Source: Pelagomonas calceolata | Taxonomy: Eukaryota | Assembly (NCBI GenBank): GCA_918797485.1 | Contig: CAKKNE010000002.1 | Span: forward strand, 1,984,001 to 2,048,000 | Length of the DNA stretch: 64,000 bases | Reading direction: 5' to 3' | Part shown: positions 30,945-63,460 of the stretch, in pieces | Layout: every line of letters begins with the position of its first letter | How positions within the stretch are numbered: the stretch's first letter is position 1 | Translations under genes and position numbers: made by a program | Notes under the pieces: model-generated | What the model was told of the DNA's origin: nothing | The model's input: only the letters and a program-made list of their open reading frames with translations | Database searches by the model: none

Positions 30945-31049
30945 GCATCTGTGGCCGCACGCACTAACACGCGTGCCACTAGTGGTCTAAGGCGCTGCAT
31001 TCAAGTCGCAGTTCTTTCGGGAGCGTGAGTTCGAACCTCACCAGATGCA
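30945..31049 (+). tRNA. tRNA-Leu(CAA) with a 23-nt non-canonical intron (30958-30980, position 13/14)
   Basis: Acceptor stem GCATCTG/CAGATGC, anticodon loop TTCAAGT, long variable arm, T arm with GTTCGAAC and a T5 terminator. The cloverleaf forms once the insert is removed. Confidence 0.9.
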
Positions 31050-31054
31050 TTTTT

Positions 31055-31125
31055 ACACTAATGATGTAGTGGCAACATCTAAGATTCCCATTCTTAGTCC
31101 CCGGGTTCGATTCCCGGTTGGTGTA
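31055..31125 (+). tRNA. tRNA-Gly(CCC), intronless
   Basis: ACACTAA/TTGGTGT acceptor, TAAGA-TTCCCAT-TCTTA anticodon arm, CCGGG-TTCGATT-CCCGG T arm and an oligo-T terminator. Confidence 0.92.
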
Positions 31126-31540
31126 TTTTTTTTGCCCCCTGTGCCCCTACACCCCCCCTTGCCCCCCTGGGCCGAAACGAGGTCCCACGAGTACCCGAGG
31201 TTGGCGGGAGACGCAACCGACTTTGGTTGCGGTCACCGTTCTGATCTGGGTCGCGTGTGCGACTTCTGGTGCTGGAATGACCTAGAATGGACAGGATGCA
31301 GCCGAGTTACGGGCCACCGAACCGAGACGACGGTAATTTTTTTTTTGGAGCTAGGAGCCGTTCCGATGCGGGGATCGCGTCGATGGCGTCAGAACGGCCT
31401 CTATTGCAAAGCATACCGGCCTTGGCCCGCACGCGAAGATTCCTCGACTCGAGAGCTTGCAAGCCCAAAGTTGGGCTCCGCACCGCTCACACACAGCAGT
31501 GCTATTGCGCTGTGAATTAGCAATCAACGAGTCGAAGAAG

Positions 31541-34418: not shown

Positions 34419-34844
34419 TAGGGATGTTTAGTGGTTTATCTATCTCGTACGGCGGCGTCGCGCCGCGAGGACTTGGGGGTAAAACAGGTTTTCAATCGCG
34501 ATACGCGAGTTGCGTGGCGAGCTCGGTACGGCCGCGTAAGAGCCCAAAAGGAGGCGCCGCGCGCAACGCTCTCGCACAAAGCGATGGCCGAGCGGCCCAT
34601 CGCCGGCCCCTGGACCAAAGCTGGCGAGCGACCATAACGCGGCCGACGCGGCAACGCTGGGAAGTGGGCGCCAGCGCCGCTCGAGGCTGCTGGTGGCGCG
34701 CCGCCGCCAAAAAAAGACCTTCGAAGACGCGTGTGTGGAGGAAGACATAACAAGCACCGCCCCAAGCGGACGAAGAAATGAGCCGGTCTACAGCTTGCGG
34801 CGGCGGTGAGAAACTGGAGCGGCGGCTAGCAATACATGTACATA

Positions 34845-36368
34845 TTATTCGCGCCGGAGGAGCGCTACAATCGCCAGAGCGATAGCGAGCGGCGCGACGA
34901 ATGATTGCGTCGTCGCTGTTGCGCTGTCCACGGCCGTGCCGTGACTGCTGTCCGCCGTCGCGAGTTCCCACGCGAACCCGTCGCCCGGTACCGCCTGCAG
35001 GAGTGGGTCCCAGTAGAAGGAACCACATGACTCCGGTGCGTCTGAGGCGTTCGCTGTGATGCTGAAAACGGAGCCGTGCGGTCGGTACGAAATCCCGCCC
35101 TCGACACACCGCCCGCCGGCTCCTAGATAATTGACGCCCACGCCGGTAAAGTACGGCGTCGGGTTCGCGGCGTCCGTACTCAATTCGTCGAGCGCGTACT
35201 CCCGGTACACGTCGTCGTAGAACTTCACGGAGGCCGCCACGCTCTCGCCGGTGGCTTTGCACACGAACGTCGAGGCGAAGCGCAGGAGTTCCTTGTATCC
35301 GTCGGAGTCGCACGTCGACAGGAACGACGCCTCCTTGAGCGCCCGGCGCTTCACGACGACCACGACCTCCTCGCCCGTATACCAGACGTGTATGGCGTTT
35401 CGTAGACCCGCCTCCGTCTCGCAGGTCGTCGCGTCGATGGGGACGGTGAGCTCCAGGTCGATGCCTCCACCGGCCTTCGGCTCGATCTCCCACACAACCT
35501 CCGTATCACACCCGTTCTCGCCCGTGAAGGTTTTGGCGTACTGGAGGCCCTCGTTCCGGCCGTCCTGCTTGGCAAGCTCGCGGTCGGCATCGCTCTTGAA
35601 GATATACGACCGCGTCGTGGCCGGGCCCCTCGTCTTCTCAATCAGGACGCCACCGTCGTAAAAGGCTCGTTCATACGTGACCTCGCCGTTGTTGTACTCG
35701 GAATCGTCGCAGACCGTACCTTCGACGCCGTAGGGGAGCGAGTGCCTAAACGATTCCCCGGCGGCCCAGCTCTCGTGGTTGAGGTGCGGATCGACATGGT
35801 TTACGTTTCCCATGTCCATCAGCAACCCGGGCCAGTGGTTAAGGCTCTGTCCGGTGTGGGGCAGCGTCGTGAGCCCCGCCGGCGGGTCCGGGTACTCGCA
35901 CGACTCGTTCGAGGGCTCGGCGCAGTCCGTGAGGCGCCTATCTTCGTGGGTGGAGTTGGTAGAGTTGGTAGAGTTGCGAAGGTCCACCGGTTGTAGCGGC
36001 CCAGGCGGAGGCCCGACTTGCTCCTCGAGAAACTTGCACGGTTTCTGAGAATGAAATTCGCTGGTTGCGCCTATCATCGTGTATTGCGCGACGGGGTCGA
36101 GCGCGAGCGTGGACCCCTGGCCGTCGGGGCCTTTGGTGGCGCAGGCGAACGAGTACTTCGGCGAGTAAGCGCCGACGACGTCACAATCGTTGCCGTCGCA
36201 GACGTACGACTGCGAGAACATGGTGATGGCCCGCTCGCCGGCGGCGAAGCCGTCGGTCCATTTCTGCCATTTATCTACGCACTTTGGGGCGCCGGCCGGG
36301 CCATTCCACTGCTCCTTTGGTTCGGCCGATGCGACAGCCAGGAGTGCGAGGAGCCGAGGCCCCAGCAT
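34845..36368 (-). CDS. Secreted Cys-containing protein with hydrophobic C-terminus (possible GPI/TM anchor)
   Basis: Signal peptide MLGPRLLALLAVASA, S/T-rich stretch and hydrophobic tail. Confidence 0.75.
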   Translation of the reverse strand: MLGPRLLALLAVASAEPKEQWNGPAGAPKCVDKWQKWTDGFAAGERAITMFSQSYVCDGNDCDVVGAYSPKYSFACATKGPDGQGSTLALDPVAQYTMIGATSEFHSQKPCKFLEEQVGPPPGPLQPVDLRNSTNSTNSTHEDRRLTDCAEPSNESCEYPDPPAGLTTLPHTGQSLNHWPGLLMDMGNVNHVDPHLNHESWAAGESFRHSLPYGVEGTVCDDSEYNNGEVTYERAFYDGGVLIEKTRGPATTRSYIFKSDADRELAKQDGRNEGLQYAKTFTGENGCDTEVVWEIEPKAGGGIDLELTVPIDATTCETEAGLRNAIHVWYTGEEVVVVVKRRALKEASFLSTCDSDGYKELLRFASTFVCKATGESVAASVKFYDDVYREYALDELSTDAANPTPYFTGVGVNYLGAGGRCVEGGISYRPHGSVFSITANASDAPESCGSFYWDPLLQAVPGDGFAWELATADSSHGTAVDSATATTQSFVAPLAIALAIVALLRRE

Positions 36369-36836
36369 TTGTTTCGATTCGTGTGTCGCTGCCCCAATCG
36401 CAGTCCTGCGGCCGCACGCAAGAGGACAAAAATTGAGATGGGCAGTGGGGCCAGAGGCTGTGATCCTAGTGTCTTGCGTCGGAGTGCTGAGGACTAGCTA
36501 GCCGGGTTAGAAGTTTTATAAAAGAGTGCTGAGGACTAGCTGGCCACCTTACGCCATCGACGCGAAGCAACATACTAGAAACGTTCGGCAGCCGCCCGGC
36601 GCCACGATCGACGAGGAAGACGCACTGCGACCACCCGCACGCCATCGACGCGGCGTCGTCCTGGTCGAGACCCGCCACACCCGACAGCCGACCACGGAGA
36701 GCGGCCGAGTTGCAATAGCTTCCGAAGCTCCCCTAGTCAAGGCGGTTTGGGTTCGGCAAGAGGGCAGCTGCGTGGTCCGGTCGCGATGCGTGAGTCCAAA
36801 AATGCAAAAAAAGAAGGAGCACGACGTGTGCTAATA

Positions 36837-36937
36837 TGCGAATTACCCGGATCGAACGGGTGACCTACAGATCTTCAGTCTGGCGCTCTCCCAACTGAGC
36901 TATCGATACCCAAGTGGAATACAGGGGTCAAATCCGC
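36837..36937 (-). tRNA. tRNA-Phe(GAA) with a 28-nt non-canonical intron (36902-36929, position 8/9)
   Basis: The spliced product GCGGATTT|AGCTCAGTTGGGAGAGCGCCAGACTGAAGATCTG..GTTCGATCC..AATTCGCA is a 73-nt typical Phe tRNA; a T-run follows downstream. Confidence 0.92.
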
Positions 36938-37169
36938 GAGCGTTGAGTGATCACCATTTGTGAGCTCCTGACTGGAGAAATGAATTCGCCAGCGAAACCC
37001 CGATCTGAAATGCGTTGCCGAAAAACCCGGTTCCATCCGGGGCCGCAAACGACTCTCAAAAATCAAACAAACGAGGGCCTCGCGAACGCGGCCGACGCGG
37101 CAACGCTGGGAAGTGGGCGCCAGCGCCGCTCGAGGCTGCCGGTGGCGCGCCGCCGCCCGGGAAGCAGCC

Positions 37170-63046: not shown

Positions 63047-63460
63047 CCCGACCGTCGCGGCGTCCCGCCGGCGGCCTCTTCCAGCTCCAGGTCGTTCCAG
63101 CGCTCCGGCTCCTTCTCCGTGAGGACGTCGCCCGAGTCGACCTCGCCTGTGTAGTAGTATTATGGTCAGAGGAGTATTGAGGGGTAGGAATGTGTGCGAT
63201 GTAGAGCGAGGGTCCTCGGCGATCTTGGTGATTGAAAAAGGTCGTCATCGCGACGCTCGAGAGTAGCAAATATGTTGTGTTCGTCAGCGGACCCAATTAT
63301 GATGCATGTGACGCTGGGGATAGGCACCTTCGTCGCCGAAGGTTTCGCCCGCGGGCAGCTCGACCTCGTCGTCACTCAAGCAGTCCTCGGCCCAGGCCTC
63401 GTCCACCACCTCGTGGACCTTCTTCCACTCGCAGAGCTTGCTGAAGTTGCTGTCGGACAT
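63043..63460 (-). CDS. APC13: Anaphase-promoting complex subunit 13 (two exons; intron 63147-63327)
   Basis: Spliced MSDS..VVDEAWAEDCLSDDEVELP..EPERWNDLEL matches the Apc13 DxW..D.L and WxDL motifs. Confidence 0.78.

What the first reader, a model, noticed from the sequence alone, without database searches (positions are those of the whole stretch)
36837..36937. tRNA-Phe with an archaeal-style BHB intron at position 8/9, just after the acceptor stem
Seen: a classic tRNA-Phe(GAA) whose first 8 nt (GCGGATTT) are separated from the rest by 28 nt. The precursor folds as an outer helix G1C2/G10C11, a central helix GGAU/AUCG (one G.G mismatch) and an inner helix ACCC/GGGU, with 3-nt bulges UU|G and AU|A. 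Cutting after the second bulge nucleotide, as the splicing endonuclease does, gives exactly the 73-nt tRNA. Known: eukaryotic tRNA introns normally lie at 37/38; ectopic BHB introns are typical of archaea and Cyanidioschyzon. Inference: this alga has a structure-guided, position-independent tRNA splicing system. Standard scanners would probably miss or truncate this gene. I cannot confirm whether it has been reported.
Basis: partly seen in the sequence, partly recalled or inferred. Interest (0 to 1): 0.88.

Follow-up and report, generated by a model that had tools for sequence, protein, structure and literature searches.

The report
Archaeal-style tRNA introns in pelagophyte alga
A marine pelagophyte alga's phenylalanine tRNA gene, apparently its only one, is interrupted after its eighth base by a short insert shaped like the archaeal intron-cutting signal, close relatives carry different inserts at the same spot, and a nearby leucine tRNA gene is split the same way, so this algal group likely removes tRNA introns by shape rather than position.

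Summary
Confirmed, on the minus strand. The host is a pelagophyte. Removing 28 nt after base 8 gives a 73-nt tRNA-Phe(GAA) that ARAGORN misses unspliced; only the 8/9 register gives bulge-helix-bulge (BHB) geometry. The orthologous locus L031 has identical exons but an unalignable 26-nt insert that fixes 8/9 and keeps the register; a third allele appears in run X15. Two genome runs of the organism show no intronless copy. A second hidden gene, tRNA-Leu(CAA) at 30945-31049, has a 13/14 insert with a perfect central helix. Not shown: splicing (contigs only, no joints) and the enzyme. Against: the Phe BHB is imperfect and 7-8 kcal/mol above the cloverleaf fold. Such nuclear introns are published for red algae and a cryptophyte nucleomorph; nine searches found no pelagophyte or stramenopile case, and no paper read lists 8/9. 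The scan had no look-alike of this DNA but noted similar introns in archaea and a giant virus. New variant of a known kind.

The parts
36930..36937 (-). tRNA-Phe(GAA) exon 1, mature positions 1-8 (5' strand of acceptor stem plus U8)
   Evidence: 8 of 8 identical in L031 inside otherwise unalignable DNA
36902..36929 (-). 28-nt insert at 8/9; BHB-type: 1 bulge base, 4-bp inner helix, 4 nt facing exon positions 3-6 (3 pair), 2 bulge bases
   Evidence: replaced by a 26-nt insert in L031 and by a third 26-nt allele in run X15
36837..36901 (-). tRNA-Phe(GAA) exon 2, mature positions 9-73 (D, anticodon, T arms, 3' acceptor strand, A73)
   Evidence: Rfam RF00005 38.8 bits; 65 of 65 identical in L031
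36806..36812 (-). T7 run, likely RNA polymerase III terminator of the Phe gene
   Evidence: sequence; kept in L031; function inferred
36943..36945 (-). CAA motif at -8..-6, possible transcription start
   Evidence: sequence; CAA motifs upstream of tRNA genes are mentioned in 10.1101/2021.12.21.473619; role here untested
30945..30957 (+). tRNA-Leu(CAA) exon 1, positions 1-13
30958..30980 (+). 23-nt insert at 13/14 in the D arm; central helix 4 of 4, inner helix 4 bp, no outer helix
   Evidence: 5e-5 of shuffles; cutting at 13/14 gives 38 of 38 identity over positions 8-45 to an intronless viral Leu(CAA) gene, the three neighbouring cuts 37 of 38
30981..31049 (+). tRNA-Leu(CAA) exon 2
   Evidence: Rfam only 16.8 bits unspliced
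31054..31126 (+). intronless tRNA-Gly(CCC) directly behind the Leu gene's T5 run

Best explanation
This is a single-copy nuclear tRNA-Phe(GAA) gene of a pelagophyte alga, interrupted between bases 8 and 9 by a 28-base insert with bulge-helix-bulge geometry, which is likely cut out by the alga's own tRNA splicing endonuclease reading the local fold rather than measuring from the tRNA body, and then likely ligated to give the normal 73-base tRNA. Shown: gene anatomy, site, register, conservation of both exons, turnover of the insert, and a second such gene (Leu, 13/14). Inferred: (1) RNA polymerase III starts upstream of exon 1 although the A box lies 28 bases further downstream than usual, so initiation cannot follow the usual A-box spacing; (2) the precursor transiently swaps the weak inner half of the acceptor stem (G4.U69, A5-U68, U6-A67) for pairs with the intron's conserved AUC, possibly helped by the 5' leader; (3) cuts fall after the second base of each bulge; (4) the insert's interior is free to drift or be exchanged so long as the register survives.
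For: Clean 73-nt product, top score of 1369 excisions. Only the 8/9 register gives the motif; 0.6% of shuffles match. Orthologous locus L031: flanks 95% and 98% identical, exon 2 65/65, exon 1 8/8, but insert 13/30 and upstream block 69/129, no better than shuffles; the search pattern did not ask for exon 1. L031's insert keeps ATC at -6..-4 and an inner helix from base 2 (0.6% of shuffles). A third allele keeps the same last six bases as L031 with a relaxed inner side (30 letters seen). In genome run X3 1 contig was laid and spans the locus; in X4 10 were laid, and among the 8 pieces listed only one, an unbranched contig, touches the tRNA; Phe codons are 140 of 4934 codons in 8 Pfam-supported frames, so the cell needs this tRNA. 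Leu(CAA) insert: 4/4 central pairs, 5e-5 of shuffles; an allele in X8 changes one loop base and one inner pair to a wobble. Precedent with RT-PCR proof in red algae: PMC3728597, 10.1101/2021.12.21.473619.
Against: The Phe motif is imperfect: position 3 is mismatched in both full alleles and the outer helix is 2 bp in the window. The BHB fold is 8.0 (window) and 7.3 (L031) kcal/mol above the cloverleaf at 37 C without leader, with pair probability 0.0; leader help appears only at some leader lengths (0.26-0.28 for L031 with 6 nt, 0.14-0.21 for the window with 20 nt, at most 0.03 in the other four leader cases). The pattern pre-selected two of the three ATC letters loosely (not-G, pyrimidine), so L031's central match is worth about 1 in 24, not 1 in 64. 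The third allele is related to L031's, not independent. Single copy rests on filtered contigs of runs that may be this DNA's source; a Phe gene sharing no stretch at 85% would be missed. No spliced molecule was seen.
Confidence: 0.78

Rival explanations
1. The insert is a true intron but is not read as a strict BHB: the enzyme cuts a relaxed structure (3' bulge only, acceptor stem partly or wholly formed), or a different nuclease does it.
For: The cloverleaf with the insert as a side hairpin is the predicted ground state, and a hybrid fold that keeps acceptor pairs 1-3 is only about 3 kcal/mol above it. Position 3 never pairs with the insert. The third allele has two mismatches next to the central helix. 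C. merolae introns with no central helix are spliced (PMC3728597); many G. theta nucleomorph introns form no defined BHB (PMC3978253).
Against: ATC sits at exactly -6..-4 in all 3 alleles seen, and the Leu insert has textbook spacing with 4/4 pairs.
Confidence: 0.12
2. The gene is an insertion pseudogene and an unseen gene supplies tRNA-Phe.
For: No spliced product seen; no whole genome could be searched. Short D- or T-arm insertions in eukaryotic tRNA genes are usually taken for pseudogenes when other copies exist (PMC4090602).
Against: Both exons are 100% conserved between alleles whose adjacent insert and upstream DNA are unalignable; no other Phe-like contig was listed in the organism's two runs; two unrelated inserts at one site both keep the motif.
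Confidence: 0.06
3. Transcription starts inside the insert at the usual distance from the A box, and the missing 5' bases are rebuilt by a Thg1-like 3'-to-5' polymerase on the acceptor's 3' strand (enzyme family recalled, not from a call).
For: The only perfect A box begins at the insert's last base, gene position 36, so ordinary spacing would start transcription within the insert.
Against: It would not explain why exon 1 is conserved 8/8 in unalignable DNA; base 8 cannot be templated by the acceptor strand and L031 has G there; it does not account for the Leu gene.
Confidence: 0.03
4. Assembly or sequencing artefact.
For: None found.
Against: The same insert is in L049 and in contigs of runs X3, X4, X5 and X15.
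Confidence: 0.01

Closest known systems
Ectopic BHB introns of Cyanidioschyzon merolae nuclear tRNA genes (Soma et al. 2013, PMC3728597; parts 1-3 of 6 read)
   Same: Nuclear tRNA genes with short inserts outside 37/38, strict and relaxed BHB types, D-stem sites (12/13 in tRNA-Ile, PMC9602550), A box interrupted or displaced, genes missed by standard scans.
   Different: Red alga versus stramenopile. Its listed sites are D-stem, D-loop, variable arm, T-stem and T-loop; none is described between acceptor stem and D arm, and none is said to need acceptor-strand bases for its central helix. It has TATA-like upstream elements; none is evident in the 60 nt upstream of the genes here. Its Fig. 2 with exact positions was not viewable.
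Chondrus crispus non-canonical tRNA introns (PlantRNA 2.0, 10.1101/2021.12.21.473619; whole text read)
   Same: Essential tRNA genes called pseudogenes by tRNAscan-SE, then shown spliced by RT-PCR.
   Different: Fixed sites 20/21 and 58/59 only; red alga.
Guillardia theta nucleomorph tRNA introns (Kawach et al. 2005, seen only through reviews PMC4090602 and PMC3978253)
   Same: Non-canonical positions in a eukaryotic nucleus, including tRNA-Phe(GAA).
   Different: Relict red-algal nucleus; D, T and anticodon arms; many lack a defined BHB.
Archaeal non-canonical BHB introns (Thermoproteales and others; reviews PMC4090602, PMC4033280, PMC10485636, passages)
   Same: 4-bp central helix between two 3-nt bulges, cut independent of tRNA body; introns shared between different tRNA genes, as hinted here for Leu.
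   Different: Archaeal enzyme and promoters. Listed sites run 20/21 to 59/60 with 3/4 as the extreme; one review says the acceptor-stem region is the exception. 8/9 is not listed in what was read, but those lists end in 'etc.'.

Membership tests
eukaryotic cytosolic tRNA-Phe(GAA) gene | cloverleaf with 7-bp acceptor stem, U8, GAA at 34-36, conserved D and T loops after removing the insert | tested here: met
   ARAGORN 114.0, 73 nt, anticodon at 34; Rfam RF00005 on exon 2; one C27.U43 mismatch in the anticodon stem
eukaryotic cytosolic tRNA-Phe(GAA) gene | nuclear setting with Pol III terminator, no encoded CCA | tested here: met
   eukaryotic genes around it; T7 run 24 nt downstream
BHB-type (endonuclease-spliced) tRNA intron | splice sites after the second base of two 3-nt bulges separated by a 4-position central helix | tested here: met
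   register fits only at 8/9 for Phe and 13/14 for Leu; L031 fixes 8/9 independently
BHB-type (endonuclease-spliced) tRNA intron | strict 4-bp central helix flanked by outer and inner helices (hBHBh') | tested here: not met
   Phe: 3 of 4 central pairs in both full alleles; Leu: 4 of 4 but no outer helix. Both are relaxed forms; relaxed forms are spliced in C. merolae
BHB-type (endonuclease-spliced) tRNA intron | motif conserved while intron sequence varies | tested here: met
   window and L031 inserts unalignable, same register; third allele; few alleles, pattern partly pre-selected
BHB-type (endonuclease-spliced) tRNA intron | motif is thermodynamically accessible in the precursor | tested here: inconclusive
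   7-8 kcal/mol above cloverleaf; leader-dependent rescue not robust
BHB-type (endonuclease-spliced) tRNA intron | excision in vivo with exon ligation | tested here: inconclusive
   no joints in contig-only runs; no raw small-RNA reads offered
BHB-type (endonuclease-spliced) tRNA intron | cleavage by the tRNA splicing endonuclease; subunit make-up | not testable with these tools
   no genome held; no endonuclease domain among the 30 of 162 window frames scanned
canonical eukaryotic tRNA intron | position 37/38, mature domain folded around it | tested here: not met
   sites are 8/9 and 13/14
spliceosomal intron | GT...AG ends | tested here: not met
   inserts begin/end GA..AT, CA..CG and CA..CT

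The most novel reading that the evidence does not exclude
Pelagophytes, among the most abundant ocean picoalgae, run an archaeal-style, ruler-free tRNA splicing system genome-wide, with BHB introns that are actively exchanged between alleles and between isoacceptor genes in wild populations, and a Pol III initiation mode that ignores A-box spacing. It would be the first such system in a nucleus outside the red-algal line, with a site (8/9) where the acceptor stem must open for splicing.
Probability: 0.4. Interest if true: 0.82.

Novelty: new variant of a known kind. Interest (0 to 1): 0.68.

Why it matters
Reviews up to 2026 place nuclear tRNA introns at non-canonical sites only in red algae and a red-algal nucleomorph, and call their origin (ancient, convergent or transferred) unresolved (PMC13578239). 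A case in a stramenopile nucleus makes that testable: transfer from the red-algal endosymbiont versus independent relaxation of the endonuclease. Site 8/9 is a sharp test of the ruler model, because human TSEN grips the folded acceptor stem (PMC10485636) and this motif needs that stem open. Three inserts at one site among near-identical genomes offer a rare view of tRNA-intron turnover in living populations. Practically, 2 of the 3 tRNA genes found in this window are invisible to ARAGORN, so pelagophyte tRNA sets are probably under-annotated.

Tried and rejected
No whole genome is held, so no genome-wide tRNA or endonuclease survey. Viral-contig scan for the Phe core: 0 hits; for the Leu core: 2 giant-virus loci, both intronless, used only as a natural reference. 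Genome-contig scan with exon 1 + gap + D arm: 65 prokaryote loci; 60 are intact tRNAs with a chance upstream match and the other 5 show an intact-looking 5' end but are cut off or disrupted downstream: no archaeal or bacterial 8/9 Phe. Metagenome scan: 49 loci, 2 with an 8/9 insert (L049, L031); an automatic check flagged 5 of 54 copies without an adjacent acceptor strand, the other three being L030 (contig end), L038 (degenerate copy) and L009 (unresolved). Spliced form: no joints in X3, X4, X5, X15 or X3, X8, X15, X17 (X17 laid nothing); all are contigs, an 8-nt exon is a poor anchor, and X15 holds unspliced intergenic DNA, so this is no evidence either way. Leader-guided refolding (idea taken from note e1-8567454): seen at 2 of 6 leader settings only, kept as a possibility. 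Relaxed ARAGORN with introns gave 56 low-scoring calls, noise except Gly. Registers 7/8, 9/10 (Phe) and 12/13 (Leu) rejected. Species name not established. Marck and Grosjean 2003 not held; Sugahara 2008, Maruyama 2010 and Kawach 2005 not read; supplements of PlantRNA 2.0 and tRNAscan-SE 2.0 (intron position tables) and GtRNAdb entries not seen, and any of them could list 8/9 or a pelagophyte.

Full report
Observation. The coordinates hold a tRNA-Phe(GAA) on the minus strand. ARAGORN reports only a tRNA-Gly in the whole window and Rfam matches model positions 8-63 only. A script that cut every block of 10-44 nt from the 5' part (1369 excisions) gave its top score, 114.0, for keeping 8 nt and cutting 28: 73 nt, anticodon at 34. 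Four other cuts tie, so I tested BHB geometry in three registers: at 8/9 the central helix has 3 of 4 pairs, the inner helix 4 and the outer 2; at 7/8 and 9/10 there is no motif. Shuffled inserts equal both scores in 0.6% of 200,000 trials.

Host. The surrounding frames are eukaryotic housekeeping genes (30 of 162 long frames scanned). The valyl-tRNA synthetase is 72% identical to a named Aureococcus protein, 76% to the representative of the cluster holding two more, 63% to two other pelagophytes and under 60% to named diatom and brown-algal proteins; 87-97% matches are unnamed environmental proteins. The host is therefore a pelagophyte stramenopile; a Pelagomonas-like species is my inference, not a result.

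Relatives. One metagenome scan with the D-arm/anticodon core, written to exclude ordinary 5' ends and not asking for exon 1, gave 49 loci. Two have an insert at 8/9. L049 repeats the window's allele. L031 is the orthologous locus: 3' flank 645/682, exon 2 65/65, exon 1 8/8, far 5' flank 402/410, but insert 13/30 and the 100-nt upstream block 69/129, neither better than shuffles (38.5% and 16.4% of shuffles score as well). Its insert is 26 nt and ends in G, so 8/9 is the single best of 1330 excisions. It keeps ATC at -6..-4 and an inner helix starting at base 2. The pattern had loosely pre-selected two of those letters, so I count that match as about 1 in 24. Laying runs on 36700-37100 showed a third allele as a loose end in X15: 30 letters giving the last four bases of exon 1 and a 26-nt insert that ends like L031's, with a hairpin but two mismatches beside the central helix.

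Copy number. In genome run X3 one contig was laid and spans the stretch; in X4 ten were laid and, of the eight pieces listed, one unbranched contig covers the tRNA. Neither shows loose ends or other Phe-like pieces, whereas the mixed runs X5 and X15 do show foreign Phe genes. These runs may be the window's source and contigs are filtered, so this is good but not final evidence that the gene is the only nuclear tRNA-Phe. Phe codons are 140 of 4934 in eight Pfam-supported frames.

A second gene. A T-arm scan of the window found a tRNA-Leu(CAA) at 30945-31049, unseen by ARAGORN and at 16.8 bits in Rfam. A 23-nt insert sits in its D arm. ARAGORN slightly prefers cuts after 11 or 12 (113.7 against 111.8 for 13), but only 13/14 gives the motif (4/4 central pairs, 4 inner, no outer; 5e-5 of shuffles) and 38/38 identity over positions 8-45 to an intronless giant-virus Leu(CAA) (37/38 for the three other cuts). 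X3 again gives one contig. In X8 an allele changes one loop base and turns one inner pair into a wobble; contigs in X8 and X15 carry the same insert but continue into a different anticodon arm that I read as Leu(AAG), and one X8 piece has it behind a different acceptor strand. These are short pieces, but they suggest the insert is shared among Leu genes.

How it likely works. Inferred: Pol III transcribes from upstream of G1 to the T7 run. The only perfect A box begins at the insert's last base, and in Leu the A box is split, so usual A-box spacing cannot set the start; C. merolae has the same problem and is proposed to use upstream signals (PMC3728597), though no TATA-like box is evident here. 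The Phe motif needs positions 1-6, which also form the acceptor stem. ViennaRNA puts the BHB fold 8.0 (window) and 7.3 (L031) kcal/mol above the cloverleaf at 37 C, and a hybrid that keeps acceptor pairs 1-3 about 3 above; leader pairing raises the central pairs to 0.14-0.28 at two of six leader settings. So the motif is a minor or enzyme-captured state. C. merolae splices motifs of positive energy and without a central helix, and Xenopus TSEN cuts a BHB placed in an mRNA (PMC10485636), so a eukaryotic enzyme can do this. I put endonuclease cleavage at the BHB register at 0.78, a relaxed variant of it at 0.12, pseudogene 0.06, 5' repair 0.03. No spliced RNA was seen: all runs laid were contigs.

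Comparison with print. Seen: PMC3728597 parts 1-3 of 6; PlantRNA 2.0 preprint whole text; PMC13578239 section 9 and passages; PMC10485636 section 7 and passages; passages only of PMC3978253, PMC4090602, PMC8450103, PMC4033280, PMC9602550, PMC3218864, PMC13728533, PMC11237714, PMC9481584. Ectopic nuclear introns are reported for C. merolae, C. crispus and the G. theta nucleomorph, in D, variable, T and anticodon arms. Nine searches found no pelagophyte or stramenopile case; the listing for the Pelagomonas genome paper shows 0 occurrences of 'tRNA'. Archaeal lists read include 3/4 but not 8/9. Subscription papers, figures, supplements and tRNA databases were not seen, so absence from print is probable, not proven. 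The scan's own notes had no look-alike sequence and no pelagophyte entry, but listed archaeal introns at 4/5 and 9/10 and a giant-virus case, unchecked here.

Verdict. Real, selected, very likely spliced. It works like the C. merolae and archaeal BHB introns and meets the geometric test in relaxed form; the strict motif is not met and splicing is untested. New lineage, new site, visible turnover: new variant of a known kind, interest 0.68.

Noticed in passing
window 30945-31049 (+): Hidden tRNA-Leu(CAA) with a 23-nt BHB-type insert at 13/14; in runs X8 and X15 the same flank and insert run into a different anticodon arm, read as Leu(AAG), and one piece has a different acceptor strand.
   Followed up: yes
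window 31049-31126 (+): tRNA-Gly(CCC) starts right behind the Leu gene's T5 run, so its upstream region is the Leu gene itself; possibly a two-tRNA transcript.
   Followed up: no
window 36902-37040 versus L031 743-895: A block of about 140 nt (insert plus upstream DNA) is unalignable between genomes that are 95-98% identical on both sides: an exchanged or hyper-divergent haplotype at the tRNA promoter.
   Followed up: partly
L028 3119-3225 (+), also L030, L040: Another eukaryote's tRNA-Phe(GAA) with a 30-nt T-loop insert; of six tied cuts the one after base 59 gives 4/4 central pairs and the T stem as outer helix, no inner helix. A neighbouring frame looks like coatomer epsilon by eye (recalled, untested). 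Lineage not determined.
   Followed up: partly
L009 2329-2504 (-): Phe(GAA) gene with a canonical intron on a fungal-looking contig whose 8 bases before position 9 do not pair with the 3' acceptor strand; a strong hairpin lies upstream and the missing bases could be pieced from two upstream spots, but no single excision gives 7/7 pairs. Pseudogene or multiply split gene, unresolved.
   Followed up: partly
window 34446-36591: L049 matches the window on both sides of this stretch but holds about 1.06 kb of unrelated DNA instead; a 73-nt near-perfect direct repeat lies at 34636-34708 and 37085-37157. Polymorphic insertion next to the tRNA.
   Followed up: no
window 63212-63292 (-): Rfam SNORD24 C/D-box snoRNA match, 48 bits.
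   Followed up: no
L050, L051: Giant-virus tRNA clusters (10 genes called in 2 kb) whose Leu(CAA) D and anticodon arms are identical to the alga's spliced Leu.
   Followed up: partly
L019, L038: Degenerate Phe-like copies with T-arm-side insertions, several per contig; probably tRNA-derived repeats.
   Followed up: no
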